Below, piece after piece: positions 1,832 to 62,157 of a stretch of 64,000 nt of DNA. Origin of the DNA: Dehalococcoidia bacterium (GTDB taxonomy: Bacteria; Chloroflexota; Dehalococcoidia; Lucifugimonadales; UBA1123). A model generated the notes under the pieces. That model saw only the letters and a list, made by a program, of their open reading frames with translations. It did not search any database and was not told the DNA's origin. The DNA is taken from NCBI GenBank assembly GCA_965116415.1, contig OZ220693.1, positions 2,220,753 to 2,284,752 of the forward strand. Direction: 5' to 3'. A program made the position numbers and the translations under genes. Within the stretch, counting starts at the first letter, position 1. The number at the start of each line of letters is the position of its first letter.

Positions 1832-1849
1832 CTCAGGCGTACCCCGCGT

Positions 1850-2809: not shown

Positions 2810-2887
2810 TTTTCCCAGGAGTGAGTGGAGAGGAGTGAGAAATGAGAGCCTCCCTGCCACCGTCAGAGGTGGCAACGGGAGTATGTA

Positions 2888-2937
2888 TTCACCCTCACCC
2901 CAGCCCTCTCCCGTCAAGGGAGAGGGGGCTATTGATG
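2888..2937 (+). repeat. Family-A interspersed hairpin element (short form)
   Basis: ttcaccctcaccccagccctctcccgtcaagggagagggggctattgat. The hairpin is ccctctccc/gggagaggg. It lies between the SBP stop and the permease start. Confidence 0.9.
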
Positions 2938-2954
2938 GGTATTGTACGAAGGGG

Positions 2955-4754
2955 CTAGCGTTCCTCCATCCAGACCTCTTCGAGGGTCACGTTGTTGTAG
3001 TAGGCGGGGTCTACGTCGTGGAAGTTCTTGACCCACGGCCACCATGCCATGCCCTCGGCCACCCACCTGATCTGAATGTGTGGCAGGTCGTTGAACAGCT
3101 TGCGCTCCATTGCCCAGACGAGCTTCAGGCGCTCTTCCTCGTCCTGTTCGGAGAGCTGTTTCTTGTACATTTCCTCAAAATCATCGTCACAGTAGCCGCT
3201 GAAGTTGTTGGATGCGTCGCACAAGTAGATGTTGCTGTAGAACAGGCTGGGGTTCAGGACTGGAGCCACGCCTCCGGCACTTCTTAGCTGGAAGTCGAGG
3301 CGGTCCTGCCTGTCCGTGTAGGCGGCGCGGTCGACGATGTCCTGGACGATCTCAACACCGATGAGCTTCAACTGGTCCTGCGCGAATGCGGGGGTCAGTC
3401 GGCTCTCCCTGGTGTTGAGCACCAGCCAGTTGAGCTTCAGCTCGCCCTCGCCGTAGCCGGCCTCTTCGAGGAGTTTCTTGGCCTGCTCTCGACGGTCCTC
3501 CATATCGGAGCCGTCCTTCTTGCCGATCTTTTCATCCAGCTCCTCGCGTGGCAGGCTCCACTTGCTCCACGGAGGCTGCCATCCGCCGGTATCGCCGGCG
3601 CCCTGGTTCAGAATCACTGTGGACTGACCGCGATCGAGGGCCAGATTGAACGCCTGGCGGACCTTCACGTCGCCCCACACCGGGTCTGACAACTGCCCAG
3701 ATACGCTATGCCACCACAGTCGCGGGATGATGGAGACGTTGATGGTGGGGTCCTGCTCCTTGAGTATCTTCCCCTCCTCCGGGTACAGATACTGCATGAG
3801 GGAGTTCATATCGAGCTGCTTCGCGCGGAAGGCAGCGAACGATGCGGTCTCTTCGGCGAAGACGATGTCCTCGATGCCGTCCATGTAGGGAAGACCGTCG
3901 CGCCAGTAGTCGGGGTTCTTGGTGAGCTCGGCCTTGCCGCCCTTCGTGTACCCCTGCCATACGAACGGCCCGGTGCCTATCACGGTGGTCTCAAGGTCTT
4001 CGTAGGGAAGCTCGCTTGGGAATATCGAAGCCCAGCCGGCGGCCAGCATCGAGATGAGTCCGGCATCTGGCTGGGTCAGCTTGATGACGATGTCCTGCGA
4101 GCCAGCTCCGCACTCGATACTCTCCACCGCGCCAAGGTCCTTGGCCCTGCGGCTCGTATCGACGTTGCGGTACTTGTCCAGACTGTGGACCGCGTCCTGA
4201 CAGTCGAGGTCGCTGCCGCTGCCGGGCACACCCTCTATGGTGTGGAACTTGATGCCGTCCTGGAGCGCGATGTTGTAAGTGAGGCCGTCGCCGGAAGCAT
4301 CCCAGTCCTCAGCAAGGTCAGGTAGGATCACACCCTTCTCATCGAAGGCGTACCGGAAGAGCCGGTTGTAGGCGGCCCCAACGCGCTGCTGGGTGCGGAC
4401 GGTGGTCTGGACCATGAAGTCGAAGTGGACCAGGTCGTCACCCGCGCTCTTGCGGAGGGTGCCCCCGTACTTTTCGTCACCGGTGGGGGCGGGCGCGGCG
4501 GGTACGGCGGTCGCGATGACCGGGGTCGCCTCCAGCGGGACCGGTGTCTCGGTGGGCGCCGGAGCGGGCGCCGCTGCCTGCGGTGCAGGCGCCTGTGCAG
4601 CAGGGGCCGCGGCTGGAGCCGCCTCCTCAGGCTCTTCCTCACTTGCGCAGGCAGTCGCCACGAGGGCCACTACGATAATCAGCGCAAGTACGCAATATAG
4701 ACCAACAGACGACTTTCTTCGGAATCTCATGAACATCAGCCTCCCTGTACGCAA
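2955..4754 (-). CDS. ABC transporter substrate-binding protein, family 5 (peptide/nickel/opine type); probable lipoprotein
   Basis: 599 aa. A signal/anchor sequence ends in ...LVATAC and is followed by an Ala/Pro-rich linker and an SBP_bac_5-like body (KFHTIEGVPG..., NPDYWRDGLPYMDGI). It lies directly upstream of two permease genes. The start could be one of the nearby Met codons. Confidence 0.88.
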   Translation of the reverse strand: MRTGRLMFMRFRRKSSVGLYCVLALIIVVALVATACASEEEPEEAAPAAAPAAQAPAPQAAAPAPAPTETPVPLEATPVIATAVPAAPAPTGDEKYGGTLRKSAGDDLVHFDFMVQTTVRTQQRVGAAYNRLFRYAFDEKGVILPDLAEDWDASGDGLTYNIALQDGIKFHTIEGVPGSGSDLDCQDAVHSLDKYRNVDTSRRAKDLGAVESIECGAGSQDIVIKLTQPDAGLISMLAAGWASIFPSELPYEDLETTVIGTGPFVWQGYTKGGKAELTKNPDYWRDGLPYMDGIEDIVFAEETASFAAFRAKQLDMNSLMQYLYPEEGKILKEQDPTINVSIIPRLWWHSVSGQLSDPVWGDVKVRQAFNLALDRGQSTVILNQGAGDTGGWQPPWSKWSLPREELDEKIGKKDGSDMEDRREQAKKLLEEAGYGEGELKLNWLVLNTRESRLTPAFAQDQLKLIGVEIVQDIVDRAAYTDRQDRLDFQLRSAGGVAPVLNPSLFYSNIYLCDASNNFSGYCDDDFEEMYKKQLSEQDEEERLKLVWAMERKLFNDLPHIQIRWVAEGMAWWPWVKNFHDVDPAYYNNVTLEEVWMEER

Positions 4755-5171: not shown

Positions 5172-6263
5172 TTGAAACTCGGACTGTTCCTAATGCCGCT
5201 GCACTACCCGGACAGGCCTCACGCGGACACGTACCAGGAGGACCTGGAGCTGGTGGAGTACGCCGACGGTCTCGGATTTGTCGAGACGTGGGTAGGCGAG
5301 CACTTCCTGCTGCCGTGGGAGAACATGCCGTCGCCGGAGCTGTTCATCGCGAGGGCGCTTGGGGTGACCAAGAAGATGTCGTTCGGCACGGGGGTATCGC
5401 TCGCGCACTTCCACAATCCTGCACACCTGGCGCACCGAATCTCGCAGCTCGACCACATGGCACGGGGTCGGATCTATCTTGGCGTCGGCGCGGGTGGCTC
5501 GACGGTAGACTCAGAGCTATTCGACATCGACGAGGACAAGGGCACTCACCGCGAGCGTATGGCGGAGTGCATCGACCTGGTCCTCAAGATCTGGGAGGGC
5601 GAGCCGTTCGAGCACAACGGACAGTTCTACACAGTGAAACTGGCGGAGGCCCAGCCTGAGAACCGCATCGGCTTCCACATGAAGCCGTACCAGGAGCCGC
5701 ATCCGCAGATCGCCGTGGCGGGCAGCAGTCCGTACTCGAGCACGCTGGAGATGGTGGGCGAGAAGGGCTGGATCCCGCTCAGCAGCTCGTTCATGCACGA
5801 GACATACCTGCCCAGTCACCGCACCGTGTTCGAGCGTGGCGCGAAGCGCGGCGGCAAGCCCGTGCCGACAGACGAGTGGCGAATATCGCGCGAACTGTTC
5901 GTCGCGGACGACGGGCAGAAGGCCAGGGACGAGGCTCTGAACGGGCCTATAGGCAACTTCTTCGACGACTACTGGATCCCGCTGTTCGGAGGCGGAGGTC
6001 CGGGACTCGACCGGCTAAAGCTCGATTCTGAAATGCCGGACACGGAGCTGACCCGGGAGTACATGCTCGAGAACTTCTGGATCGTCGGCGACCCCGATGA
6101 GTGCGCGCACCGGATCAAGCGCATGTACGACGACGTGGGCGGGTTCGGGACGCTGCTGCTCCAGTGTCACGACTGGGTTGAGGACCGGCCGAAGTGGTTC
6201 CGGTGTCTTGAGCTGATGGCCAACGAGGTGCTGCCGAAGGTCAACAAGGCCATAGCGGCGTGA
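5172..6263 (+). CDS. Luciferase-like (LLM class) flavin-dependent monooxygenase/oxidoreductase
   Basis: In-frame TTG at 5172 lies 7 nt after AGGAG and gives MKLGLFLMPLHYPDRPHADTYQEDLELVEYADGLGFVETWVGEHF.... This is the canonical LLM N-terminus. The upstream 128 codons of track ORF 4788..6263 look non-coding. Confidence 0.85.
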   Translation: MKLGLFLMPLHYPDRPHADTYQEDLELVEYADGLGFVETWVGEHFLLPWENMPSPELFIARALGVTKKMSFGTGVSLAHFHNPAHLAHRISQLDHMARGRIYLGVGAGGSTVDSELFDIDEDKGTHRERMAECIDLVLKIWEGEPFEHNGQFYTVKLAEAQPENRIGFHMKPYQEPHPQIAVAGSSPYSSTLEMVGEKGWIPLSSSFMHETYLPSHRTVFERGAKRGGKPVPTDEWRISRELFVADDGQKARDEALNGPIGNFFDDYWIPLFGGGGPGLDRLKLDSEMPDTELTREYMLENFWIVGDPDECAHRIKRMYDDVGGFGTLLLQCHDWVEDRPKWFRCLELMANEVLPKVNKAIAA

Positions 6264-6289: not shown

Positions 6290-6497
6290 CACCCTCACCC
6301 CCGTATCAAGTATGGGGCAGGCTCTTAGTGAGTTCACAGAGGTAAGTATTCGAGCTTTTCACCCTCACCCCAACCCTCTCCCTGAGGGAGAGGGGGCCGT
6401 TGATTGGTATTCGCGCTGTCTGCACACCTTTACCTACCCCTGTGAGCCCCCGGATCAGGTCCGGGGCAGGCTCTGAGGGAGAGGGGAGATTGATTGC
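6290..6497 (+). repeat. Family-A compound array (A' variant plus long composite form)
   Basis: caccctcacccccgtatcaagtatggggcaggctc... is followed by ttcaccctcaccccaaccctctccctgagggagagggggccgttgattggtattcgcgctgtctgcacacctttacctacccctgtgagccc...ggggcaggctctgagggagagggg. Confidence 0.9.
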
Positions 6498-8797
6498 ATT
6501 TCAGGCTCAGTGACGGGAGGATGGGGCCAGCGTTTGCGCTGGTGGGTCTGGCAGGCCTGGTTGTCGCGGCGGTCGTGCTGAGTTATGCAGCGCCGGAGCC
6601 CGATCCGAGCTTGGAAGACGATGGGACGGCTGATCTCCGCGAGTACGCCGGACGGCTGTCGGAGTCGGGGGACCCGTACTTCGGCACTAGGCAGCTTGAC
6701 TACCTGCTCGGGCAGTTGGAGAGTCCCGTCTACGACACCGACACCTGGCGCCTGACGATACTCAGGCAGCTTGCGTTTCACCGGCTGAGACTCGGGCAGG
6801 TGGACGAGTCGATTTCGCTGCTCACAGAGGCCGTGGAGCTTGCTGAGCGTTCTATGCCGGACAGCCGTGACCGGCTCGACGCGCTGGAGGAGCTTGCGGT
6901 CGCGTACATGAAGCGCGGCGAGATCCAGAACTGCGTCAGCCCGGAGGGCAGGCTAGTGTGCGCGCTGCCGCTGGACCCTGAATACGCGCACGAGGACTCG
7001 GACAGCGTCTCGCGGGCGATAGAGATACTCGAAGACCTGCTCGTGCTCGACTTCGACAAGCTCAGCACAGGGGAAACTGACAACGTGAGACGGAGGTGGC
7101 TGCTCAACATCGCGCACATGGCTCGGGGGACGTATCCGGCTGGCGTGGACGAGGAATTCCGGGTGCCGCCTTCGGCGTTCGAGCCTGAGCACGAGCTTGG
7201 CGGACGGTTCAGAGAGGTGGCGGCGGACATCGGGATATACTCGGTCGACCTCGCGGGTGGAGCTATAGTCGAAGACTTCGACAACGATGGGTTACTGGAC
7301 ATCGTGACATCAAGCTGGGACCCGTCGCAGAGCCTCAGGCTGTACCTTAACGACGGCAGCGGGCGGTTCGTGGAGCGAACCAGCGTGGCGGGCCTGTCTG
7401 ACCAGACGGGTGGTCTGAACATCGTCCAGACCGACTACGACAACGACGGCTGGATGGACATTCTGGTCATGCGCGGCGGCTGGCTGATGTCTAACGGGCA
7501 GATGCGGATGTCGCTGCTCCGCAACGATGGGGACGGCACGTTCAGCGACGTTACGCACGAGTCGGGGCTGGCGACTCCCCCGGTCCCCAGCCAGAGCGCG
7601 GCGTGGGCGGACTACGACAACGACGGCGACCTCGACCTGTTCTCGTGCAACGAGTCGATGCCCGAGACCTCCGAGGACGGCGCGGCGATGATATTCCCCA
7701 GCCAGCTTTTCGAGAACGACGGCAGCGGCGTGTTTACAGACGTTGCCCGCCAGGCTGGCGTTGCCAACATGCGCTACTGCAAGGGGAGCGCGTGGGGTGA
7801 CTACGACAACGACGGCGACCTTGACCTGTACGTATCCAACTACGCCTACGAGAACCGGCTGTACCGGAACGACGGGAACGGCACGTTCACCGACGTGGCC
7901 CCGGAGCTCGGCGTGACCGAACCGGTCGAGAGCTTCCCGACGTGGTTCTGGGACTATGATAACGACGGCTGGCTCGACCTCTTCGTCGCGGGATACGCCA
8001 GGGACATCGACTCGGTGGCTGCGGACTACATGGGGCTGCCAAGCGACGGGGCGAGGCCAAGGCTGTACCGGAACACCGGCGCGGCCCTTCGACAGGCTCC
8101 CGCCGCAGCGGACTCTCAACAGGGTGCATGGTTCGATGACGTCACCGCACAGGTGGGCCTCGACGACGTCAACCAGGGCATGGGAGCCAACTTCGGGGAC
8201 TTCGACAACGACGGGTTCCTCGATATATATCTCGGCACCGGCTTTCCGGCATTCAATGCGCTTGCGCCGAACGTGGCCTATCGCAACGATGGTGGTACTT
8301 TGTTCTCAAACGTAACGTTCTCGGCAGGGCTCGGGCATATACAGAAGGGTCACGGGATAGCGTTCGGAGACCTCGACAGGGACGGCGACCAGGATATATT
8401 CATGCAGGTCGGGGGGTTCTATCCGAGCGACGGGTTCGTGAACTCGCTGTACGTGAATCCTGGGTCCGGCAACCGCTGGACATCGATACGTCTCATCGGA
8501 ACGCAGTCGAACCGGGCGGCTATCGGCGCGCGTATCAGGGTCGACGTGACTACGAGCGGGGGTACACGGGCTACCCACGCGGTAGTCGGCAGTGGTGGTA
8601 GCTTCGGAGCGTCCAGCCTGGAGCAGGAAATTGGGTTGGGGCGTGCTGAATCAATCGAGTCTGTCGAGATATGGTGGCCTGCGTCCGGGACGAGGCAGAG
8701 GTTTGAGGGCGTGCCGCTGGATACGGCCATCGAGATAGTCGAGGGAGAAGATGGGTACAGGGTGGTGGAGCGTCGGGGATTCAGGATTGTCCCGTGA
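6494..8797 (+). CDS. CRTAC1-family protein: N-terminal anchor plus TPR-like region, FG-GAP/VCBS repeats and a C-terminal ASPIC/UnbV domain
   Basis: 767 aa. Repeated DYDNDGxxD(I/L) calcium-binding FG-GAP motifs occur at least 7 times. The C-terminus N(R)WTSIRLIGTQSNRAAIGARIRV...GGSFGASS is typical of ASPIC/UnbV. Confidence 0.85.
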   Translation: MHFRLSDGRMGPAFALVGLAGLVVAAVVLSYAAPEPDPSLEDDGTADLREYAGRLSESGDPYFGTRQLDYLLGQLESPVYDTDTWRLTILRQLAFHRLRLGQVDESISLLTEAVELAERSMPDSRDRLDALEELAVAYMKRGEIQNCVSPEGRLVCALPLDPEYAHEDSDSVSRAIEILEDLLVLDFDKLSTGETDNVRRRWLLNIAHMARGTYPAGVDEEFRVPPSAFEPEHELGGRFREVAADIGIYSVDLAGGAIVEDFDNDGLLDIVTSSWDPSQSLRLYLNDGSGRFVERTSVAGLSDQTGGLNIVQTDYDNDGWMDILVMRGGWLMSNGQMRMSLLRNDGDGTFSDVTHESGLATPPVPSQSAAWADYDNDGDLDLFSCNESMPETSEDGAAMIFPSQLFENDGSGVFTDVARQAGVANMRYCKGSAWGDYDNDGDLDLYVSNYAYENRLYRNDGNGTFTDVAPELGVTEPVESFPTWFWDYDNDGWLDLFVAGYARDIDSVAADYMGLPSDGARPRLYRNTGAALRQAPAAADSQQGAWFDDVTAQVGLDDVNQGMGANFGDFDNDGFLDIYLGTGFPAFNALAPNVAYRNDGGTLFSNVTFSAGLGHIQKGHGIAFGDLDRDGDQDIFMQVGGFYPSDGFVNSLYVNPGSGNRWTSIRLIGTQSNRAAIGARIRVDVTTSGGTRATHAVVGSGGSFGASSLEQEIGLGRAESIESVEIWWPASGTRQRFEGVPLDTAIEIVEGEDGYRVVERRGFRIVP

Positions 8798-8830
8798 GTT
8801 GGTGCTAACAGGATGAGGGTATGCGTATCA

Positions 8831-8880
8831 TTCACCCTCGCCCCAACCCTCTCCCTTAGGGAGAGGGGGCCGTTGGTCGA
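8831..8880 (+). repeat. Family-A element (short form)
   Basis: ttcaccctcgccccaaccctctcccttagggagagggggccgttggtcga. Confidence 0.9.
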
Positions 8881-8936
8881 GGTCTAGGTTGGGAGCTGTA
8901 TCAACATACCGCTGCTACCTGAAAGGGACGTGAGCG

Positions 8937-10360
8937 ATGGTGGCTGAGTCGGGGCGGGCCTTGGAGAGGGCGTGGATGTGCCGGGTGTGCTCGCGTCCGA
9001 ACGTTGAGGACGCAACACGGTGCGCCAACTGCTGGGCGAACCGGCCTGAAGACGTCGAGCTGCTGGACATGCCGGACGCGGACGCGCTGGCAGCGCGGGT
9101 CCGGAGGTCGAGGGTCAGCCGGCGTGTGCTGCGGTGGGCTGTGGGAGTCGCAGTCGTGGCCCTCGCTGCCGCCTGGTTCATTCTGCCGCACTTTGGTGTG
9201 GCGCTCTTCCAGTCCGAACCCTCGCTGGACATAAGCTCGTCTCCGATTGGCGGCGACTGGCCGATGTACCAGCGTGACCTCTCCCACAGCGGGGCAGCGA
9301 CCGGCAATGAGTTGGCACTGAAAGGCCGCCTCAAGTGGGAGTACGATGCCGACGGTCCGATGTACTCATCTCCCGCCGTGGTCGATGGGAGGGTCTACCT
9401 GGCGACGGGGGCAGGGTCGATTGTCGCTCTGGACGCAGAGACGGGCGAGGAGGTCTGGAAACACACTACCGGAGGGCCGCTGAACTCGTCGCCCGCGATT
9501 GCGGGGGAATGCTGTTCATTGGGCGTTTCGACGGCGGAGTAGAAGCGCGCGACCTGGGAACCGGGGATGTCCTATGGGAGTTCATGACCGGGGCCAGGGT
9601 GATTTCGTCCCCAGCCGTGGACCGTGGCGTCGTGTACATCGGATCCGGTGACGGCAACCTGTACGCGCTCGACGCGGGCACAGGTCAGGAGCGTTGGACG
9701 TACAGGACACGGGGCTGGATCAGCAGCTCGCCGACCGTGTTCGATGACTATGTGGCCATCGCGTCGTTCGACGGCCTTCTGCACGTGGTACACAGGGACA
9801 CTGGGAAGAAGCGTCTGGACTTTCATCTCTCCGAGACGCCTCGAAGTTCGGCCGCGTACGGGGAACAGCACCTCATAGTCGCCGACGGTCGGGGCCGGCT
9901 CAAGGCCGTGGACTGGAGGGAGCGTACGCTGCCGCTGGAATGGCTGTGGCTGAAGGTCCGGGTACAGCTCTTGTACTGGGGCATGATCGATACGCTGTCG
10001 AATCAGAAGGGCTTCATCTGGGGGACCTCCACGGAAGACGCCTTCATGGGTACGCCTGTGGTCTCAAACGGGATCGTGTTCGCGGCGAACTTCGGGGGAA
10101 CGGTGATCGCGGCTGACGAGAGCACGGGGGAGGTCGTGTGGCGGACGCAGGTCGGCGCTCCGGTATCGGGGTCGATGTCGGCAGTCGCAGATGTCGTGCT
10201 GGTTGGAGACACGGACGGCATTCTGCACTCACTCGACGCAGAGACAGGCGAATCGCGATGGCAGTTCAGGACGGATGGGCGGATCAGCGCGACGCCGGTC
10301 GTGGTGGATGGGGTAGCTTACGTTGGCTCATGGGGCGGGGCTCTGTACGCGGTTGAGTAG
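8937..10360 (+). pseudogene. Zinc-ribbon / TM / PQQ-like beta-propeller repeat protein, interrupted by a -1 frameshift in a G5 run (9503..9507)
   Basis: ORF 8937..9542 (CRVCSRPNVEDATRCANCWA zinc ribbon, TM segment, PQQ-like repeats) and ORF 9335..10360 are collinear with the intact paralogue at 29396..30802. Frame 1 ends ...SSPAIAGE and frame 2 continues GGMLFIGRFDGG. The paralogue reads SSPAVAGDLLYIGLRDN at this point. Confidence 0.8.
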
Positions 10361-10430
10361 CGCCGTCAATCTGACGCGTCATCGGGCCTTATGGAACATA
10401 TCGCTGCTCACGAACGTCTTGAACACTTAG

Positions 10431-11780
10431 ATGCCCAGTCTGGAGCGTCCTGAACGTACTTCGCCCACAGCGCCGGGAGTAGAGGCAATGAACAGATTAG
10501 TGGCAGCAGTGCTCGTGCTCGCCTTCACGGTCGGACTGTTTCTAGTCGCCTGCGACGATTCGCCATCTACGCCTGATTCAATCGTGATGCCAGACAGGGC
10601 CAAGCCGTCGGCCGCCGAGTCTGAGATCGACGATCTGGTGCGGGGAAACAGCGCATTCGCGTTCGACCTCTACCAGACGCTGAACTCCGAAGACGGGAAC
10701 TTGTTCTACTCGCCCTACAGCATCTCGATTGCCCTGGGGATGACATACGCGGGAGCTAGGGGTGAGACCGAGAGTCAGATGGCGGACACACTTCACTTCA
10801 CTCTTCCCCAAGGCACTCTCCACCCAGCGTTCAACACGCTGTACCAAGACCTCGACTCTCGAAATGATGACGACCCATCCGCATTCCAACTGAGCATCGC
10901 GAATGCTATGTGGGGACAGCAGGACTACCAGTTCCTGGATGAGTTCACCACTGTAGTTGGTGAGAACTACGGCGCCGCTGTGAGACCGACGGACTTCGTG
11001 GGGCAGCCTGAGGAGTCACGACTCAGGATCAACGATTGGGTTGCTAACGAGACCGAGGACAGAGTCAAAGACATGATTCCTGAGGGGAAGTTTGAGGACG
11101 TGCCGCCCGTGCTGGTGCTCACAAACGCCATCTACTTCAACGCGGCCTGGGTAAGTAAGTTCAATGAGATGTCGACACTCACCAATTTTCACAGGCTTGA
11201 TGGGGAAACGGTGGCCGTACCGATGATGAACCGGGCAGAAAAAACGAGCTACGCCAGTGGGGACGGATACCAGGCGGTCGACCTGCGGTACAAGTTCGGC
11301 AATATATCCATGACGGTTCTGATCCCGGACTCCGGATCATTCCAGGCGTTTGAGAAATCCCTGGACGACGAGCTGGTGGCACGAATCATTGACGACCTCG
11401 AGACAAGGCAGGTCGTGCTGACTATGCCGAAGTTTGAGTTCGAGTCGACGCTTGACCTCGCCGACACGCTCAAGAGCATGGGAATGACCAACGCATTCGA
11501 AGAGAGAAGAGCAGACTTCTCCGGTATGGATGGCAAGTCATGCATGGCAGGAGATGTCCCATGTCTGCTTCTCTCGGACGTCATTCACAAGTCGTTCGTG
11601 GTGGTGGATGAAGAGGGAACCGAAGCTGCCGCAGCTACCGCGGTGGTAGTCATATTGGAGAGCGGAGCGCCAGACCCTCAGGTTGAGCTAGTCATCGACC
11701 GGCCGTTCATCTTCCTGATTCGAGATAACGGAACAGGCACAATCCTGTTCGTGGGGCGAGTGCTGGACCCCAGTGCTTAG
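10431..11780 (+). CDS. Serpin (serine protease inhibitor family), probable lipoprotein; copy 1
   Basis: 449 aa. NSAFAFDLY, NLFYSPYSISIALGMTYAGARGET, the hinge EEGTEAAAATAV and the C-terminal DRPFIFLIRD are all serpin hallmarks. The likely true start is ATG 10488, giving MNRLVAAVLVLAFTVGLFLVAC (lipobox). Confidence 0.92.
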   Translation: MPSLERPERTSPTAPGVEAMNRLVAAVLVLAFTVGLFLVACDDSPSTPDSIVMPDRAKPSAAESEIDDLVRGNSAFAFDLYQTLNSEDGNLFYSPYSISIALGMTYAGARGETESQMADTLHFTLPQGTLHPAFNTLYQDLDSRNDDDPSAFQLSIANAMWGQQDYQFLDEFTTVVGENYGAAVRPTDFVGQPEESRLRINDWVANETEDRVKDMIPEGKFEDVPPVLVLTNAIYFNAAWVSKFNEMSTLTNFHRLDGETVAVPMMNRAEKTSYASGDGYQAVDLRYKFGNISMTVLIPDSGSFQAFEKSLDDELVARIIDDLETRQVVLTMPKFEFESTLDLADTLKSMGMTNAFEERRADFSGMDGKSCMAGDVPCLLLSDVIHKSFVVVDEEGTEAAAATAVVVILESGAPDPQVELVIDRPFIFLIRDNGTGTILFVGRVLDPSA

Positions 11781-11799
11781 TGCGTCTGACAGCTTATCT

Positions 11800-11875
11800 C
11801 AGCGCGACGCCGGTCGTGGTGGATGGGGTAGCTTACGTGGGATCGTGGGATGGGGTGTTGTACGCGATTGAGTAG
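11800..11875 (+). pseudogene. Duplicated 3'-terminal remnant of the PQQ-propeller gene
   Basis: 11800..11875 is near-identical to 10284..10360. It encodes ...SATPVVVDGVAYVGSWDGVLYAIE* and has no upstream gene body. It marks the start of the second copy of the serpin cassette. Confidence 0.8.
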
Positions 11876-11948
11876 GACCGAGCCGATTTGCCGCATCCAC
11901 CAGCCGTCATGGAACAAATCGCTGCTCACGAACGTCTTGAACACTTAG

Positions 11949-13352
11949 ATGCCCAGTCTGGAGCGTCCCAAGGGTAAGACGCCGGGAGTAGAGATGATGA
12001 ACAGATTAGTGTCAGTGGCAGCAGTGTTCTTGCTCGCGATCATGGTCGGACTGTCGGTACTCGCGTGCGAGGATTCGCCGTCGACAACTGCTCAAGACGT
12101 GTCATCGGATAAGGCGGAGCCGTTAGTCACACCAGTTCCAGACGTAATGCCAGACAGGGCAGAGCCGTCGGCTTCCCAGTCTGAGGTGGACGAGTCGGTG
12201 CGTGGAAACAGCGCCTTCGCCCTCGACCTCTACTGGACGCTGAGCTCCGAAGATGGGAACCTGTTCTACTCGCCCTACAGCATCTCTATTGCACTGGGGA
12301 TGACGTACGCGGGCGCGAGGGGTGAGACGGAACAGCAGATGGCGGATACTCTGCACTTCACTCTTCCGCAAAGCACTCTCCATCCAGCCTTCAACACCCT
12401 GCATCTCGATCTCGACTCTCGTGGCGGTGACAAGGATGACAACGACCCGTCCGCCTTCCGGTTGAACGTCGCTAATGCGCTGTGGGGACAGGAGGGCTAC
12501 CAGTTCCTGGACGAGTTCACCGCTGTCGTCGGTGAGAACTACGGCACTGCAGTGAGACGGACGGACTTCGTGAGTCAGCCCGAGGAATCACGAGTCAGGA
12601 TCAACGACTGGGTCGCTAATGAGACCGAGGACCTGATCACGGAGATCATTCCACCACGGAAGTTTGAGGAGCAAGCGCCGGCACTGGTGCTCACAAATGC
12701 CATCTACTTCAATGGCGCCTGGACGCGCAAGTTTAAGGAAATGCCAAGGCCCACCGACTTCCACAAGTTGGGCGGGGAGACTGTTGCCGTGCCGATGATG
12801 AACAGTTCGGACAAGAGGAGGTACGCCAGTGGCGACGGGTACCAGGCGATCGAACTGTCCTACAAGTTCAGCAGCATGTCCATGACCATTCTGCTCCCGG
12901 ACTCAGGGACATTCCAGGAGTTCGAGGGCTCACTGGACGACAAGCTCGCGGCGCAAGTCACCGAAGGCCTTGAGTCCAGGATGGTCAACCTGACGATGCC
13001 GAGGTTCAAGTTCGAGTCTACCTTTGATGTGATCGACATGCTCAAGAGCATGGGAATGACCAACGCATTTGACATCAAGAAGGCCAACTTCTCCGGCATG
13101 GACGGCAAATCGTGCATTGCAGGAGATGCTGATTGCCTGTACCTGTCGAATGTCTTTCACAAGGCCTTTGTTGATGTAGATGAAGAGGGGACGGAGGCCG
13201 CGGCCGCTACCGCGGTAATCGCCGTGCCATCAAGCGCGCCACCAGGCCCACCTGTCGAGGTCATCGTGGACAGGCCTTTCATCTTCCTGATCAGCGATAG
13301 AGCGACAGGCACAATCCTGTTCGTGGGGCGAGTGCTGGACCCAAGCGAGTAG
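11949..13352 (+). CDS. Serpin, probable lipoprotein; copy 2 (tandem paralogue)
   Basis: 467 aa and collinear with copy 1. It has the same hinge GTEAAAATAV but a different distal reactive-centre loop (IAVPSSAPPGPP). The lipobox is LSVLAC. Confidence 0.92.
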   Translation: MPSLERPKGKTPGVEMMNRLVSVAAVFLLAIMVGLSVLACEDSPSTTAQDVSSDKAEPLVTPVPDVMPDRAEPSASQSEVDESVRGNSAFALDLYWTLSSEDGNLFYSPYSISIALGMTYAGARGETEQQMADTLHFTLPQSTLHPAFNTLHLDLDSRGGDKDDNDPSAFRLNVANALWGQEGYQFLDEFTAVVGENYGTAVRRTDFVSQPEESRVRINDWVANETEDLITEIIPPRKFEEQAPALVLTNAIYFNGAWTRKFKEMPRPTDFHKLGGETVAVPMMNSSDKRRYASGDGYQAIELSYKFSSMSMTILLPDSGTFQEFEGSLDDKLAAQVTEGLESRMVNLTMPRFKFESTFDVIDMLKSMGMTNAFDIKKANFSGMDGKSCIAGDADCLYLSNVFHKAFVDVDEEGTEAAAATAVIAVPSSAPPGPPVEVIVDRPFIFLISDRATGTILFVGRVLDPSE

Positions 13353-13384
13353 TGCGCCAGACGGCTCATCGCGAGCCGCGAGCG

Positions 13385-14281
13385 CTACATCCGGTGGGCG
13401 AGCTTGGGGTCGAGGATGTCACGGAGGCCGTCGCCGGCGAGGTTGATGGAGGTCACGGTGATCGCGAGGACGAGTCCGGGGAAGAAGATCACCCACATCG
13501 CCTTGTGGATGAAGCCGCGGCCCTCGGCCATGATGTTGCCCCAGCTTGGGTTGTCGATGGCGGGGATTCCGGCACCGAGGAAGCTCAGGTAGGCCTCGGT
13601 CAGCATCGCGCTTGCGGCGACGTAGGTGCCCATGACGATGATCGGCGCCATCAGATTGGGGATGACGTGGCGTATGAGAATGCGGCCGTTGCTCGCGCCG
13701 ATTGAGCGCGCGGCATCTACGAACGGCTGCTCTCTCAGGCTCAAGACCGACGCGCGGGCGATGCGGGTCATGCGCGGTGTGTCTACGATCACGATGGCTA
13801 CGATGACGTTCTGGAGGCTCGCGCCGAGCATCACCATCAGCGCTATCGCCAGCAGCACCGTGGGGATCGCCATCAGCCCGTCCATGACGCGCATGAGCAC
13901 GGCGTCCACCTTGCGGAAGTATCCGGCGAGTGAACCGAACGTGGCCCCAAAGATCATCGTCAGTATGGCGACGGCAGCGGCCACGAGGAGCGAGATGCGT
14001 CCCCCGCTCATGGTGCGGCTGAACACGTCGCGCCCGAAGGCGTCGGTGCCGAACCAGTAGCTCGCAGACGGGGCGTCGAGCCGGGCGTCCATGTTGATCT
14101 TCGTCGGCTCGTTGGCGATGACGAATGGCGCGAACACGCTGATGAGCACCAGTATCGCGAGGAGCGCGAGGCCTATGGTCATCGTCGGCTCTCGCACCGC
14201 GATGCGAAGGGACGACCTCCAGGCACGCGCAGCCAGAGAGGAGCTCTGTTCAACCAGTGACTGTCCGGTTGCCTGTGCCAT
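13385..14281 (-). CDS. ABC transporter permease, DppC/OppC-like
   Basis: 298 aa, multi-TM. ...EAYLSFLGAGIPAIDNPSWG...RDILDPKL. Its start overlaps the upstream permease stop. Confidence 0.9.
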   Translation of the reverse strand: MAQATGQSLVEQSSSLAARAWRSSLRIAVREPTMTIGLALLAILVLISVFAPFVIANEPTKINMDARLDAPSASYWFGTDAFGRDVFSRTMSGGRISLLVAAAVAILTMIFGATFGSLAGYFRKVDAVLMRVMDGLMAIPTVLLAIALMVMLGASLQNVIVAIVIVDTPRMTRIARASVLSLREQPFVDAARSIGASNGRILIRHVIPNLMAPIIVMGTYVAASAMLTEAYLSFLGAGIPAIDNPSWGNIMAEGRGFIHKAMWVIFFPGLVLAITVTSINLAGDGLRDILDPKLAHRM

Positions 14282-15237
14282 CAGTACCTGATCCTGGGGT
14301 CTAGGAAAGCATAGAGAATGTCGACAGCCAGGTTGATGAAGACGTAGAAGCTGCCGATGAGGATAATCATCGCCTGGATTATCGGATAGTCGCGGGTTGC
14401 TATTGCCTCGACAGCGAGCCGGCCCAGTCCCGGGATGGCGAACACGCTCTCGGTGACGACCGCTCCTGACAGAAGCCCCGCCAGGCCCAGCCCGATAACG
14501 GTCAGTATCGGCAGCGACGCGTTGCGGAGCGCGTGCCGGACCAGTACGGTCCTCTCAGTCACTCCCTTCGCCCGCGCTGTCCGCACGTAGTCCTCTTTCA
14601 GGACTTCCAGGACGCTCGCCCTGGTCATCCTGGCGATGAGTGCGATGACGACAAGGCCCAGGCTCAGAGCTGGAAGGATGAGATGACGCACGTACTCCCA
14701 GAGATCGTCTGTGAGCTTCACGTAACCCGCGACGGGCAGCAGGGGATTGTCCATTCCGAACGCCCACAGCCCGAACAGCCATATCAGGATGAAGCCCAGC
14801 CAGAATATGGGGACCGAGAACCCGACCGCGGCGAACACCATTATGGAGCGGTCAGTTATCGAATTAGCTTTCCACGCGGCAAGAACGCCCAGCGGTATCG
14901 CAACCAGTACGGCTATAAGCTCGGTTGCGACCGTCAGGGAGACCGACGGTCCCACACGACCCTTGATCAGCTCGAAGACCGGCCGTCCCGACCTGATGGA
15001 CGTTCCAAAGTCGCCCTGCATGATACGCCCGGCCCACTTGCCCAGCTGGACGTAAATGGGATCGTCGAGTCCGAGGCGTTCGCGGATCTTGACGTACTCT
15101 TCGTGGGTGGCCTCGTTACCGGCGATGACCGCGGCCGGATCGCCCGGCGTGAGACGCAACAGGAAGAACGTGAACAGCCCGACGACCACCAGAACAGGGA
15201 TCGTAGCCAGCAGTCTGCGGACGATATAGGCGAACAA
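14281..15237 (-). CDS. ABC transporter permease, DppB/OppB-like
   Basis: 318 aa. Starts MFAYIVRRLLATIPVLVVVGLFTFFLLRLTPGDPA and ends ...FLDPRIRY. Confidence 0.9.
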   Translation of the reverse strand: MFAYIVRRLLATIPVLVVVGLFTFFLLRLTPGDPAAVIAGNEATHEEYVKIRERLGLDDPIYVQLGKWAGRIMQGDFGTSIRSGRPVFELIKGRVGPSVSLTVATELIAVLVAIPLGVLAAWKANSITDRSIMVFAAVGFSVPIFWLGFILIWLFGLWAFGMDNPLLPVAGYVKLTDDLWEYVRHLILPALSLGLVVIALIARMTRASVLEVLKEDYVRTARAKGVTERTVLVRHALRNASLPILTVIGLGLAGLLSGAVVTESVFAIPGLGRLAVEAIATRDYPIIQAMIILIGSFYVFINLAVDILYAFLDPRIRY

Positions 15238-15336
15238 ATTCTTCCTTCACGCAGTTGGGCTAAAGTCTTCGTCCTCAGCTTCCGTTTAGCATCAGGGGAC
15301 TGCGAGGAAATGAATACTTCAACAGTAGATTGATGC

Positions 15337-15364
15337 GTAGGGGCGGTTCGCGAACCGCCCCTAC
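15337..15364. repeat. Family-C 28-nt perfect palindrome
   Basis: gtaggggcggttcgcgaaccgcccctac. It lies between the SBP stop (15384) and the permease start (15237). Confidence 0.9.
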
Positions 15365-15383
15365 AATTTACTGATCGGACGTT

Positions 15384-17240
15384 TTAGCGAGGATCGTCGG
15401 CCCTGCGGGACTCGTCGCCCCACCATACGTTCAGGAAGAGCGGGGAGCCCACGGGTGCGCCGCGAATGTCGACGTCGTTGAGGTCCTTGTCGTAGATGCG
15501 AAGCTGGAAGAACTGGCCGAAGGTGACCCTCCTGGGGTCGGCCCAGGCGGCGTCGGCCATCTTGCGGGTAACCGCGAACTGCTCATCAAGGGTCGGCGCG
15601 GCGGCGAACTCGGCCCTTAGCTGGGTCATCAGCATTCCGGTCTCGGAGTCCTCCGCATAGTTGGTCTCGCCGACCCTGTAGTGGGTCGCGACCAGCGGAT
15701 GGTAGAGGTTGCTGCTGTTCCAGTTGGTGAAGATGTGCCAGCCATCCACGCCTCGGAATGTCGCAATCTGTCCCGCCCAGTCAGTCGACTTGACCTGCGC
15801 GTTGATTCCGACCGCCGAGAGCTGTTCCTTGAGCACCGGAGCTATCGGGTGGATCGTCGGGAAGTCCGTCGGGTCCAGAATGATGATCGGCTCACCGGAG
15901 TAGCCCGACTCGGCAAGCAGCTCCCTGGCTCGCTCGGGGTTGTTCTGGTTGTACAGGTCTGCGTTGTCCGTGTGCTCGGCCCAGGGTGTGCCGCACATCT
16001 GGAGCGACGGGCAGAGCTGCCAGAGGCGCGAATCGCCGTAGCCCTTCATGATGTCTTCGGCATTGACCGCTGCCTGCATCGCCTGACGGAGCTTCTTGCC
16101 GCTCTCAGTGAAGCCCAGCAGCGGGTCGCGCGTGTTGAAGCCGATGTCAGGCTGCGCGCCGGGGATGCCGATGTGGATCGACACCTGGTCGGAGTTCTTC
16201 AGCGCCTCTTCGTAGAAGTCGGAGGAGACGACGTCGAGGAAGTCCACGGTGCCGGTCAGAACGGCGGCCACGCGGGTCTCCTGGTCGGGGATCTCCTTCA
16301 TGTGGAGGCGGTCGAAGTAGGCGAGCTTCGCGCCTGCACGGTAGCTGGGCTCCTCGCGCCTGGGCACGTACTCTTCGTACCTGTCGAGGATGATCTCGTT
16401 GCCGGGATCCCAGCTGATGTACTTGTAGGGGCCGGACGCGACGAAGTCCTGGATGAGCTCACCCGCCGGGTACTTCTCTGCGGTCTCCTTGGGCATGATG
16501 TTCGGCTGCGTGCCGCCTACATAGCCCAGGGCCGTCATCAACAGGGCGGACGGCTCGCTCAGAACTATCCTGAACGTCTTGTCGTCAACGGTCTCGAAAC
16601 CTTCCCAGATCTCGTTGAGGATCGGGCTGAAGGACGTGTCCTGCTCCCGGAACCTAGCGATCGACGCCTCTACGTCCTCGGGAAGGACCTGAGTGCCGTC
16701 GTGCCACATGAGATTGTCGCGGAGAGTGAAGGTGTACGTGCTGCCATCCACCTCCCAGTTGTCGGCCATGTCAGGGTTGATGAACCCCTGAGAGTCCCAC
16801 TGTGCGAGGGATTCCCAGAAGTGCCAGGATACGCCTCGGCCGATGGCCGAGCCGGATGTCATGGAGTCGAGGTTGCCCACGCTTCCCTGCGGGACCCAGA
16901 CCAGCGTACCGCCGAACCTGTCTTCGGAGAAGATGTTGGTGTCGGCGTCGGATGCCACCATCGGGCGCGAGGTGGTCCTCTGCGCCGCTATGATCGGCTC
17001 AGCAGCTTCCGGAGCGCCCGGAGGCGGCACGGCGGTCGCGGCCGGGGCGGCGGCGGCAGGCTGCATTGGAGCCATGGTCTGCGTGGTCTGTCCTGCCACG
17101 GCGGGTGCCGCCGGAGCGGCAGGCGCGGGCGCCTGCGGGGCCGCTGGCGCGCCGGGCTCTTCGGCCGAGCACGCCATCGCAAGCAGGCCCAGAGCCAGGG
17201 TCAGCACCATGACGGGAATTACAAATTTCAATCGTCTCAT
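15384..17240 (-). CDS. ABC transporter substrate-binding protein, family 5; probable lipoprotein
   Basis: 618 aa. Signal sequence ...LLAMAC, then an Ala/Pro-rich linker and an SBP_bac_5-like body. It is the first gene of an SBP-permease-permease operon. Confidence 0.88.
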   Translation of the reverse strand: MRRLKFVIPVMVLTLALGLLAMACSAEEPGAPAAPQAPAPAAPAAPAVAGQTTQTMAPMQPAAAAPAATAVPPPGAPEAAEPIIAAQRTTSRPMVASDADTNIFSEDRFGGTLVWVPQGSVGNLDSMTSGSAIGRGVSWHFWESLAQWDSQGFINPDMADNWEVDGSTYTFTLRDNLMWHDGTQVLPEDVEASIARFREQDTSFSPILNEIWEGFETVDDKTFRIVLSEPSALLMTALGYVGGTQPNIMPKETAEKYPAGELIQDFVASGPYKYISWDPGNEIILDRYEEYVPRREEPSYRAGAKLAYFDRLHMKEIPDQETRVAAVLTGTVDFLDVVSSDFYEEALKNSDQVSIHIGIPGAQPDIGFNTRDPLLGFTESGKKLRQAMQAAVNAEDIMKGYGDSRLWQLCPSLQMCGTPWAEHTDNADLYNQNNPERARELLAESGYSGEPIIILDPTDFPTIHPIAPVLKEQLSAVGINAQVKSTDWAGQIATFRGVDGWHIFTNWNSSNLYHPLVATHYRVGETNYAEDSETGMLMTQLRAEFAAAPTLDEQFAVTRKMADAAWADPRRVTFGQFFQLRIYDKDLNDVDIRGAPVGSPLFLNVWWGDESRRADDPR

Positions 17241-21041: not shown

Positions 21042-21101
21042 TCGGTCCCTCTCTCCAGGGTTGCTGTCTTTCTAAGGTAGTGAGGCTACGACGGTAATCT
21101 C

Positions 21102-22067: not shown

Positions 22068-22128
22068 TTTGGTTCACCCTTTTTAAGTACATACCTGCCC
22101 AACGACCTCATCGAATTCGTCGGGTTCA

Positions 22129-22177
22129 CCCTCACCCCAGTATCTAGGAAAGTCAGGCCTAGATACTGGGGTGAGGG
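22129..22177. repeat. Perfect 20-bp hairpin built on the family-A caccctcacccc module
   Basis: ccctcaccccagtatctagg (22129-48) and cctagatactggggtgaggg (22158-77) are exact reverse complements with a 9-nt loop. It lies between the SBP stop (22277) and the permease start (22067). Confidence 0.9.
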
Positions 22178-22276
22178 AATCTGCAGGCAATTCGTATGTT
22201 CTAAAGGCGCGCCCGCAATCGCTGGTGCGATGCGCGAGCGCGCCCATTATTCGCCTCAGTCAGGTAACTGCTCTGG

Positions 22277-29286: not shown

Positions 29287-29315
29287 GTGGATTCCCGGTT
29301 TCGCGGGAATGACGG
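29287..29315 (+). repeat. Family-B hairpin element
   Basis: gtggattcccggtttcgcgggaatgacgg. Confidence 0.85.
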
Positions 29316-29395
29316 CGAGCCCGGCGAGGTGCGCGAAGTCCCGATTTAGCTACGTCGGTGCATCGGGGCGGCGTGTTCTTGTATCATCAAGTGTT

Positions 29396-62139: not shown

Positions 62140-62157
62140 ATCGTAGTGGGCCGATCA

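What the first reader, a model, noticed from the sequence alone, without database searches (positions are those of the whole stretch)
10284..13370. Tandem duplication of a serpin cassette (with a fossil of the upstream gene tail) and divergence concentrated in the reactive-centre loop
The ~1.5-kb unit contains the last 76 nt of the PQQ-propeller gene, the spacer and the serpin gene. It occurs twice in tandem, starting at 10284 and 11800. The second copy keeps a functionless gene tail (11800..11875, ...VVVDGVAYVGSWDGVLYAIE*). This proves a duplication rather than independent acquisition.

Both serpins keep an inhibitory-type hinge (EEGTEAAAATA). Counting from the hinge, the predicted P4-P2' residues differ: V-I-L-E/S-G in copy 1 and A-V-P-S/S-A in copy 2. 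The linker after the lipobox also differs; copy 2 has an extra ~20 aa.

This pattern suggests neofunctionalisation toward different target proteases. Both serpins are predicted lipoproteins. They sit next to two secreted or anchored propeller proteins (CRTAC1-like and PQQ-like).
Basis: partly seen in the sequence, partly recalled or inferred. Interest (0 to 1): 0.6.

Follow-up and report, generated by a model that had tools for sequence, protein, structure and literature searches.

The report
Tandem membrane-anchored serpin genes, diverged loops
A soil or water Dehalococcoidia bacterium carries two adjacent, intact copies of a surface-anchored protease-inhibitor (serpin) gene that differ most in the bait loop that chooses the target protease; this is a real, old, still-recombining gene array, but of a kind already familiar from animal serpin clusters.

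Summary
A 1.5-kb unit occurs twice head to tail, at 10284-11798 and 11799-13370. Each unit holds the last 77 nt of the PQQ-propeller gene, a spacer and a serpin gene.

It is not an assembly artefact. The copies differ by about 20% in DNA, and the same architecture, fossil included, occurs in independent Dehalococcoidia genome assemblies.

Both serpins are intact, with a canonical inhibitory hinge and a lipoprotein-type signal peptide. The reactive-centre loop is the most diverged stretch of the mature protein: predicted P4-P1' is VILE|S in copy 1 and AVPS|S in copy 2. Each loop type is conserved in orthologues, which supports different protease targets.

The history is more complex than one duplication:
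- The locus holds three loop types across relatives, with gains, losses and replacement by foreign genes.
- The 5' module, including the well-preserved fossil, has undergone recent gene conversion.
- VILE|S recurs in several separate body lineages, apparently by convergence.

Each unit also carries a conserved ECF-sigma-type promoter (GGAAC-N17-CGTCT). This motif lies upstream of 43 of 96 related serpin genes.

The kind is known; the regulation and the predicted P1-Glu class are new details. Targets remain untested.

The parts
8937..10360 (+). Upstream gene: Zn-ribbon, TM helix and PQQ beta-propeller protein. It is split here into two ORFs by a 1-nt deletion in a G-run near 9503. Its last 77 nt (10284-10360) form the left end of unit 1.
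   Evidence: Pfam PQQ_2 and related matches on both ORFs. The gene is an intact 472-479 aa ORF in L003, L080, L081 and L002. The alignment shows the single-base gap.
10284..11798 (+). Repeat unit 1: PQQ gene tail, spacer with promoter, serpin 1, and 18 nt after the stop.
10393..10419 (+). ECF-sigma-type promoter of serpin 1 (GGAAC-N17-CGTCT).
   Evidence: It is conserved in all nine serpin copies at this locus while the spacer sequence varies. The motif lies upstream of 43 of 96 related serpin genes, against 0.022 expected per 510 nt (p = 1e-44). The spacer is 17 nt in 42 of 43 cases, and flanking positions that the search did not constrain are also conserved.
10488..11780 (+). Serpin 1 (430 aa, loop type I). 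SD GGGAG at 10475-10479. Lipobox LVAC with Cys22 at 10551-10553. Hinge P17 at 11610. P1 Glu at 11658-11660 and P1' Ser at 11661-11663.
   Evidence: Pfam Serpin E = 3e-109. Identical to database protein P0001. Coordinates. Gapless alignment to chloropin.
11799..11875 (+). Fossil copy of the PQQ gene tail, with its stop codon. It is the left end of unit 2.
   Evidence: 68 of 77 positions match 10284-10360. The first 40 nt are identical and include synonymous states found only in this genome. The equivalent fossils in L001 and L002 are decayed.
11799..13370 (+). Repeat unit 2: fossil tail, spacer with promoter, serpin 2, and 18 nt after the stop.
11911..11937 (+). ECF-sigma-type promoter of serpin 2 (GGAAC-N17-CGTCT).
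11994..13352 (+). Serpin 2 (452 aa, loop type II). SD GGGAG at 11984-11988. Lipobox VLAC with Cys25 at 12066-12068. Linker 15 aa longer than in serpin 1. Hinge P17 at 13182. P1 Ser at 13230-13232.
   Evidence: Pfam Serpin E = 1e-107. A 452-aa protein, P0015, 69% identical to serpin 1, lies on the same 3,755,442-bp contig as P0001. I equate it with serpin 2 by length and identity but did not compare the sequences. Coordinates.

Best explanation
This is a genuine, old tandem array of two paralogous inhibitory serpins in a Dehalococcoidia chromosome.

Origin (shown). A 1.5-kb unit was duplicated by unequal recombination. The unit ran from 77 nt inside the upstream PQQ-propeller gene to 18 nt past the serpin stop, so every downstream copy carries a dead gene tail. 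Each copy also carries its own promoter and ribosome-binding site.

Proteins (sequence features shown, function inferred). Each protein has a lipoprotein signal peptide. It is therefore most likely tethered by a lipidated Cys and a flexible linker to the outer face of the cell membrane. There it would act as a suicide-substrate inhibitor of extracellular serine proteases.

Divergence (shown). The paralogues have kept an identical hinge. They have diverged most in P6-P3' of the reactive-centre loop and in linker length.

Targets (inferred). Copy 1 (VILE|S) would trap a Glu-specific protease, or a Leu-preferring one if the cleavage site is shifted by one residue. Copy 2 (AVPS|S) would trap a protease that prefers small residues, of the elastase or subtilisin type. 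Relatives of the AIPV|S type resemble alpha-1-antitrypsin (AIPM|S).

Regulation (inferred). Transcription of each copy is probably driven by an extracytoplasmic-function (ECF) sigma factor. That would tie expression to envelope stress.

Dynamics (shown). The array keeps evolving by unequal crossover, gene conversion and exchange between related lineages.
For: Duplication, boundaries and fossil.

Independent assemblies. Syntenic loci with FG-GAP, PQQ, serpin(s) and permease occur in six other Dehalococcoidia assemblies. Five carry a fossil tail after the first serpin; in L081 a longer fossil lies upstream of its single serpin.

Intactness and constraint. The body has pN 0.14 and pS 0.49, a dN/dS of about 0.2. 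The hinge P17-P8 is 100% identical. In 60 homologues the serpin core residues are invariant (FSPxS, N213, H367, GTEA, PF).

The loop is the divergence peak.

Loop types are conserved in orthologues:
- Type I (VVVILES): win_s1, L001_b, L002_a.
- Type II (A[VA]PSS): win_s2, L002_b, L003_a.
- Type III (IPVS): L001_a, L081_a and the outgroups.

Lipobox. It is present in all 12 locus copies and outgroups. The Cys is at least 90% conserved in 60 homologues. A solute-binding protein in the window has the same kind of signal, LAMAC|S.

ECF promoter. In L014 an ECF sigma gene and a DUF4349 gene sit directly upstream of the motif and the serpin. In five other Chloroflexota loci the order is ECF sigma, a TM protein, a Beta_propel protein, then a serpin.

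Recombination:
- Window unit 1 matches L001 unit a up to the promoter block and L001 unit b from there on.
- The 5' module has pS 0.14-0.34 against 0.5-0.8 further 3'.
- The promoter spacer and the first 40 nt of the fossil share states found only in this genome.
Against: No biochemical data exist for any member of this clade. P1 is assigned by counting and by alignment only, and the real scissile bond could be shifted by one residue.

The AlphaFold model was too poor to help. Mean pLDDT was 62.8, and the loop scored below 50.

Synonymous sites in the hinge and loop are saturated (pS 0.72-0.93). Accelerated evolution cannot therefore be separated from greater age of that segment.

No ECF sigma gene, protease gene, or lgt/lspA gene lies in the 64-kb window. 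The motif was not found upstream of the ECF sigma genes that are linked to serpins elsewhere.

Within this window the motif count equals chance, with 3 found and 3.05 expected. The case for a promoter therefore rests on conservation across loci.
Confidence: 0.68

Rival explanations
1. Ancient paralogues with homogenised bodies. On this view the loop classes are much older than the local array. Gene conversion keeps making the bodies of neighbouring copies alike, while selection protects the loops. The apparent concentration of divergence in the loop would then be a by-product of conversion elsewhere, not of faster change after duplication.
For: Synonymous divergence along the gene is a mosaic. 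It is 0.25-0.34 in the first 75 codons and 0.62-0.82 at codons 212-240 and 332-390. The hinge plus loop has pS 0.73 against 0.49 in the body (p = 0.055). Conversion tracts at the 5' end are clear. VILE|S occurs in at least five separate clades of a tree built from the body only. P1 Glu is the commonest predicted P1 among the 120 closest homologues, at 35, ahead of Val at 31.
Against: The local VILE|S copies share features with their local type II and III neighbours, and not with distant VILE|S serpins. These are P7 Ala, the P' flank GAPGPP, and an AGY codon for P1' Ser. Distant VILE|S serpins have P7 Gly, the flank ARPTP and a TCG codon. That points to local origin of the loop by a few point changes. 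All three local types form one clade in the NJ trees, which were not bootstrapped.
Confidence: 0.25
2. Redundant copies with neutral loop drift. The two serpins would inhibit the same targets, or one would be on its way to loss. The loop differs only because it is an unconstrained surface loop.
For: Serpin loops are variable in general. The linker is also highly variable. Copies are readily lost at this locus, since L003, L080 and L081 keep one each.
Against: P4-P1' is identical within each type across species whose bodies are only 75-76% identical. The same VILE|S motif recurs in separate lineages. Both genes are intact with dN/dS of about 0.2. In the window, L001 and L002, which keep two copies, the two are of different types, never two of the same type.
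Confidence: 0.06
3. Assembly artefact: a single serpin gene falsely expanded into two.
For: None beyond the fact that the source is a metagenome-assembled genome. It carries one suspicious homopolymer frameshift nearby.
Against: The copies differ at about 20% of DNA positions, carry several indels and are 31% different in protein. Two-copy arrays with the same boundaries occur in the independent assemblies L001 and L002.
Confidence: 0.01

Closest known systems
Chloropin, the serpin of Chlorobium limicola (PDB 8GXV; PMC10090351)
   Same: It is the best solved-structure relative, at E = 3.7e-69. It is a bacterial inhibitory serpin with the same hinge, and its alignment through hinge and loop is gapless. 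It inhibits proteases by the standard suicide mechanism.
   Different: The same P17 count makes chloropin's P1 an Arg (my reading of the alignment); the paper reports that it best inhibits thrombin-like proteases. It lacks the invariant C-x6-C loop that this family has before strand s5A. The paper does not describe a tandem array or promoter; I did not examine its genomic context.
Miropin of Tannerella forsythia (PDB 5NCS)
   Same: It is a bacterial serpin. From my own knowledge (Ksiazek et al. 2015; Goulas et al. 2017), it is a surface lipoprotein that protects the cell from proteases, and it can use more than one reactive site in its loop. Spence et al. note that membrane-anchored serpins occur only in prokaryotes.
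   Different: It comes from a host-associated Bacteroidota species with two membranes, as a single gene with a basic P1. It is a more distant sequence relative, at E = 1.4e-48.
Tandem serpin clusters of animals with hypervariable reactive centres (rodent Serpina1/Serpina3 clusters, Hill and Hastie 1987; insect and tick serpin arrays)
   Same: Both show tandem duplication followed by divergence focused on the reactive-centre loop while the hinge and body stay conserved. This comparison rests on my own knowledge. A tick example of tandemly duplicated serpins appeared in the search.
   Different: Those are eukaryotic secreted or intracellular proteins. They have no lipoprotein anchor and no ECF-type promoter. 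The fossil of a neighbouring gene and the exchange between lineages are features of the bacterial locus.
Human SERPINB9 (PI-9, P1 Glu) and SERPINB1 (adjacent dual reactive sites)
   Same: PI-9 has a VVAE|C reactive centre, one of the few characterised serpins with an acidic P1. SERPINB1 uses neighbouring residues (Phe, Cys) as alternative P1 sites. In the alignment these fall opposite Leu-Glu of serpin 1. The biochemical facts are from my own knowledge.
   Different: Both are intracellular clade B serpins of mammals, and no homology beyond the superfamily is implied. The resemblance only suggests possible specificities.

Membership tests
Inhibitory serpin (Pfam PF00079, MEROPS I4) | Full-length serpin domain | tested here: met
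   Profile positions 2-370 of 370 are matched in both copies, with E = 3e-109 and 1e-107.
Inhibitory serpin (Pfam PF00079, MEROPS I4) | Hinge consensus P17-P9 ExGTEAAAA with small residues, as required for loop insertion | tested here: met
   EEGTEAAAAT is present in both copies and is 100% identical between them. The consensus is as cited by Spence et al..
Inhibitory serpin (Pfam PF00079, MEROPS I4) | Canonical loop length (17 residues from P17 to P1) and conserved core residues | tested here: met
   The alignment to chloropin is gapless from hinge to the PF motif. S75, P76, S78, N213, H367, G377-A380, P406 and F407 are invariant in 60 homologues.
Inhibitory serpin (Pfam PF00079, MEROPS I4) | Formation of a covalent, SDS-stable complex with a target protease | not testable with these tools
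   This needs recombinant protein and protease assays.
Bacterial lipoprotein (signal peptidase II substrate) | Positively charged n-region, hydrophobic h-region and a lipobox [LVI][ASTVI][GAS]C with Cys at position 15-35 | tested here: met
   MNR...LFLVAC (Cys22) in copy 1 and MMNR...LSVLAC (Cys25) in copy 2. The same pattern is in all locus copies. The Cys is at least 90% conserved in 60 homologues.
Bacterial lipoprotein (signal peptidase II substrate) | Lgt and LspA encoded by the genome; lipid modification shown | not testable with these tools
   Neither gene lies in the 64-kb window, and the rest of the genome was not available.
ECF-sigma-dependent promoter | A -35 GGAAC and a -10 CGTC(T) separated by 16-17 nt | tested here: met
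   Found at 10393-10419 and 11911-11937.
ECF-sigma-dependent promoter | Both blocks and the spacing conserved across orthologues and paralogues while the spacer sequence varies | tested here: met
   Present at 43 of 96 serpin genes against 2% background. The spacer is 17 nt in 42 of 43. TTT after GGAACn and T after CGTC are conserved although the search did not require them.
ECF-sigma-dependent promoter | Cognate ECF sigma and anti-sigma identified; the same motif upstream of the sigma gene (autoregulation) | tested here: inconclusive
   There is no ECF sigma in the window. ECF sigma genes lie 2-5 kb upstream of serpins in six other loci. The motif was not found in front of those sigma genes.
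ECF-sigma-dependent promoter | Mapped transcription start and sigma dependence | not testable with these tools
   This needs 5'-RACE or transcriptomes, or in vitro transcription.
Accelerated (positively selected) reactive-centre evolution | dN/dS above 1 in the loop | tested here: inconclusive
   The loop has pN 0.36-0.46 but pS 0.72-0.93, which is saturated. Only the excess of amino-acid change over the body is shown.

The most novel reading that the evidence does not exclude
Serpin arrays of Dehalococcoidia may form an envelope-stress-controlled, membrane-tethered anti-protease shield. On this reading an ECF sigma factor drives expression. The bait loop switches repeatedly and convergently between two states, hydrophobic-Pro-Val|Ser and Val-Ile-Leu-Glu|Ser. 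Cassettes are swapped between co-existing lineages. This would be an arms-race locus, and it would point to a widespread, so far unrecognised Glu-specific (or otherwise VILE-recognising) extracellular protease in these communities. The neighbouring transmembrane beta-propeller proteins could be the sensors or the protected clients.
Probability: 0.2. Interest if true: 0.65.

Novelty: new member of a known kind. Interest (0 to 1): 0.42.

Why it matters
Prokaryotic serpins are few in the literature, and their natural targets and regulation are mostly unknown. Full-text searches found nothing on serpins of Dehalococcoidia or on a link between serpins and ECF sigma factors.

This locus offers a clean natural experiment. 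It has paralogues with the same scaffold but different bait loops, each conserved across species, plus a testable promoter.

If the predicted P1-Glu class is real, it would define a bacterial serpin specificity with almost no characterised precedent. It would also give a handle on which proteases matter to peptide-scavenging Chloroflexota. This window alone encodes four Opp/Dpp-type peptide transporters.

In itself, however, tandem serpin duplication with loop divergence is a textbook pattern.

Tried and rejected
- Structure model to fix P1. An AlphaFold2 run with a 60-sequence alignment gave mean pLDDT 62.8, with the loop (residues 364-395) and the C-x6-C loop below 50. It was not usable, so no fold search was run.
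- Rfam scan of 8500-14500. Only sub-threshold chance hits were found, so the conserved spacer block is not a known RNA.
- Sigma-70 promoter and intrinsic terminator scans of 10200-13500. No promoter was found and one chance-level terminator, so nothing marks the fossil as a terminator.
- dN/dS in the loop. Synonymous sites are saturated, so no claim of positive selection is made.
- Search for the cognate ECF sigma, a protease target, or lgt/lspA in the window. None was found among 48 ORFs.
- Motif upstream of serpin-linked ECF sigma genes. Not found.
- Source record of serpin 1 through exact-protein look-up. It is not on record.
- Loop cassette transfer from a distant VILE|S serpin. Considered and thought unlikely, because the P7 residue, the P' flank and the P1' Ser codon are of the local type.
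- PQQ frameshift as a sign of gene decay. Considered and rejected. The repaired protein has only 7 private substitutions, against 13-21 in three of the intact orthologues and 1-2 in L080 and L002.

Full report
**What is in the sequence**

The region 6494-17240 encodes, in this order:
- an FG-GAP/ASPIC (CRTAC1-like) protein;
- a PQQ-type beta-propeller protein;
- two serpins;
- on the opposite strand, two permeases and a family-5 solute-binding protein of a peptide ABC transporter.

The repeat finder and a pairwise alignment show two colinear units, 10284-11798 and 11799-13370. The left edge of each unit is the last 77 nt of the PQQ gene, stop codon included. The right edge is an 18-nt stretch after the serpin stop, at 11781-11798 and 13353-13370.

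The second tail (11799-11875) matches the real one at 68 of 77 positions. It still reads SATPVVVDGVAYVGSWDGVLYAIE*. It lies in a different frame from serpin 1, and no ORF of at least 80 aa covers it.

**It is not an artefact, and it is not private to this genome**

The two units differ at about one DNA position in five and by several indels. The proteins are 69% identical. A falsely expanded assembly would give near-identical copies.

Database proteins matching serpin 1 (P0001, identical) and, by length and identity, serpin 2 (P0015, 452 aa) both sit on one 3,755,442-bp contig. The closest loci are all Dehalococcoidia metagenome-assembled genomes, many of them single-contig chromosomes.

Six other assemblies share the same neighbourhood of FG-GAP gene, PQQ gene, serpin(s) and permease:
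- L001 and L002 have two serpins with a fossil tail between them.
- L003 and L080 have one serpin, followed by a fossil remnant and an unrelated gene.
- L081 has a TPR gene, a longer 148-nt fossil and one serpin.

The duplication therefore predates the split of these species. Their flanking FG-GAP proteins are 83-88% identical to the window's.

**The proteins**

Both are full-length serpins. Their best solved relative is chloropin of Chlorobium limicola (8GXV, E = 3.7e-69), a demonstrated inhibitor.

The true starts are MNRLV (10488) and MMNRLV (11994), each preceded by GGGAG. The ATG further upstream that opens the listed ORFs is ACG in L001, and gene callers chose the shorter forms.

Each protein begins with a basic n-region, a hydrophobic stretch and a lipobox: LVAC with Cys22 in serpin 1, VLAC with Cys25 in serpin 2. 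This Cys is present in every copy at the locus and in at least 90% of 60 homologues. A solute-binding protein in the window has the same kind of signal.

I infer membrane-tethered lipoproteins. The modification enzymes are not in the window and could not be checked.

The hinge EEGTEAAAAT is identical in both, and the serpin core residues are invariant across the family. An extra loop with two invariant cysteines (C-x6-C) precedes strand s5A. Chloropin lacks it.

**Where the paralogues differ**

| Region | Amino-acid identity | pN | pS |
|---|---|---|---|
| Body | 73% | 0.143 | 0.49 |
| Hinge P17-P8 | 100% | 0 | 0.75 |
| Loop P6-P3' | 22% | 0.46 | 0.93 |

The loop excess over the body is significant (Fisher p = 0.001). 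The four most diverged 13-residue windows of 369 all lie in the loop. The linker after the lipobox is the other variable part, with 59% identity and a 15-residue indel.

Counting 17 residues from P17 gives P4-P1' of VILE|S for serpin 1 and AVPS|S for serpin 2. The gapless alignment places these P1 residues opposite the Arg that the same count makes chloropin's P1.

Synonymous sites in the loop are saturated, so I make no claim of dN/dS above 1.

**Evidence that the loop difference is functional**

At this locus the copies fall into three groups by body tree and by loop:

| Type | Loop | Members |
|---|---|---|
| I | VVVILES | win_s1, L001_b, L002_a; L080_a has a variant |
| II | A[VA]PSS | win_s2, L002_b, L003_a |
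| III | IA[IM]PVS | L001_a, L081_a, and the outgroups L004 and L005 |

Within a type, P4-P1' is identical although the bodies are only about 75% identical. In the window, L001 and L002, which keep two copies, the two are of different types.

Other Dehalococcoidia arrays (L011, L012, L082) also mix loop classes. This supports different protease targets. It does not identify them.

**A wider and less expected pattern**

Among the 120 closest homologues, the commonest predicted P1 residues are Glu (35), Val (31) and Ser (16).

In a tree built from the body alone, VILE|S appears in at least five separate clades, interleaved with hydrophobic-Pro-Val|Ser types.

The local VILE|S copies share three features with their local neighbours: P7 Ala, the P' flank GAPGPP, and an AGY codon for the P1' Ser. 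Distant VILE|S serpins have P7 Gly, the flank ARPTP and a TCG codon.

The simplest reading is repeated, independent change of four or five residues to the same motif, which implies a common selective target. The alternative, that bodies are homogenised while old loops persist, is not excluded. I keep it as the main rival.

**The array is still recombining**

1. Window unit 1 is a chimera relative to L001. Its tail and spacer match L001's first unit (82-96%). From the conserved spacer block onward it matches L001's second unit (96-100%).
2. The type I genes of the window and L001 are 95% identical in protein (pS 0.14). Yet the flanks say the window is closer to L002, whose type I gene is only 76% identical.
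3. The gene that replaces the downstream serpin is 99% identical between L003 and L080. Their flanks are 84-91% identical.
4. Inside the window, the first 75 codons of the two serpins have pS of about 0.25-0.34, against 0.6-0.8 further 3'. The promoter spacer (GCTGCTCAC) is shared only by the two window copies, and so are the first 40 nt of the fossil.

The fossils of L001 and L002 are visibly decayed, with 66-77% identity and deletions. So the fossil proves duplication, but its freshness here reflects recent gene conversion, not a recent origin.

The data fit an ancestral order of PQQ, III, I, II, permease, followed by differential loss. No three-copy genome was found.

**Regulation**

The spacer block conserved in all nine copies contains GGAAC-N17-CGTCT. 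From my knowledge of ECF sigma promoters, this is their classic form: an AAC-containing -35 element and a CGT-containing -10 element.

Across all fetched loci, the strict motif lies within about 450 nt upstream of 43 of 96 serpin genes. The background is 0.022 per 510 nt (p = 1e-44). The spacer is 17 nt in 42 of 43 cases. Positions that the search did not constrain are also conserved, namely TTT after GGAACn and T after CGTC, while the spacer sequence varies.

In L014 an ECF sigma gene and a DUF4349 gene sit just upstream of the motif and the serpin. In five more distant loci the order is ECF sigma, a TM protein, a Beta_propel protein, then a serpin.

Against this:
- there is no ECF sigma in the window;
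- the motif is not found before those sigma genes;
- the motif count within this window alone equals chance.

I rate ECF control as probable, not shown. Full-text searches found no prior report.

**Comparison and verdict**

The proteins meet every sequence-testable criterion of inhibitory serpins and of lipoprotein precursors. Tandem duplication with loop-focused divergence is the classic pattern of animal serpin clusters. A lipoprotein serpin is known in miropin. So this is a new member of a known kind.

The new details are:
- a duplication unit that carries its own promoter and a fossil of the neighbouring gene;
- a likely ECF promoter shared by many Chloroflexota serpins;
- a large predicted P1-Glu class with apparently convergent VILE|S loops;
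- exchange between lineages at the locus.

None of the proposed targets has been tested.

Noticed in passing
window 9495-9510 (PQQ gene 8937-10360): A 1-nt deletion in a G-run (TTGC-GGGGGAATG against TTGCCGGGGAGATG in relatives) splits the PQQ-propeller gene into two overlapping ORFs. The repaired protein has few private substitutions (7, against 13-21 in three of the intact orthologues and 1-2 in L080 and L002). A homopolymer sequencing error or a very recent frameshift is therefore more likely than an old pseudogene.
   Followed up: yes
window 10393-10419 and 11911-11937; also 41 serpin genes in loci L001-L082: A conserved ECF-sigma-type promoter (GGAACnTTT-N13-CGTCT) precedes many Chloroflexota serpin genes.
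   Followed up: yes
L017 3221-7293, L067 3026-7134, L051 2468-7296, L044 313-6517, L022 640-7311: A recurrent gene order in more distant Chloroflexota: an ECF sigma, then an unannotated TM protein that is sometimes fused to the next gene, then a secreted Beta_propel (PF09826) protein, then a serpin. In the window, too, the serpins follow transmembrane or secreted beta-propeller proteins (PQQ, FG-GAP). The propeller-serpin pairing may be functional.
   Followed up: partly
L003 7568-8374 (-) and L080 7501-8280 (-): A gene with no Pfam match occupies the place of the downstream serpin, just after a fossil remnant. It is 99% identical in protein and 96-100% in DNA between two genomes whose flanks are only 84-91% identical. 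This suggests recent lateral spread into the same site.
   Followed up: partly
L081 3544-5841: This relative has a 570-aa TPR protein, fragments of the permease gene (5360-5663) and a longer 148-nt PQQ fossil (called as a 65-aa ORF) between the PQQ gene and its single serpin. It is a different and larger rearrangement at the same site.
   Followed up: no
L082 5318-11457: A different locus in another Dehalococcoidia genome holds four serpin genes in a row. One is a 690-aa product with two hinge and loop motifs, either a fusion or a frameshift-joined pair. The loops are VDRP|V, VILE|S (twice) and TEKV|V.
   Followed up: no
serpin 1 residues 352-359 (window about 11541-11564) and the same site in serpin 2: An extra loop with two invariant cysteines (S-C-x-A-G-x-x-x-C) lies before strand s5A. 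It is conserved in all 60 aligned homologues and absent from chloropin and other solved serpins. It may form a disulfide at the pole where the trapped protease ends up.
   Followed up: no
window 938-4754, 13385-17240, 20148-24349, 60292-63932: The 64 kb hold four separate Opp/Dpp-type peptide ABC transporter gene sets (family-5 binding protein plus two permeases). This suggests a peptide-scavenging lifestyle in which extracellular proteases matter.
   Followed up: no
window 29309-30802 (+): There is a second PQQ-type beta-propeller gene (497 aa) 16 kb downstream. It is not adjacent to any serpin.
   Followed up: no
window 10431 and 11949: The ATG that opens the long ORFs (MPSLERP...) is ACG in the L001 copies. 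Both window copies share the T. It sits in the 5' untranslated region downstream of the promoter and is one of the shared derived states that reveal gene conversion. Annotating the long ORFs would be an error.
   Followed up: yes
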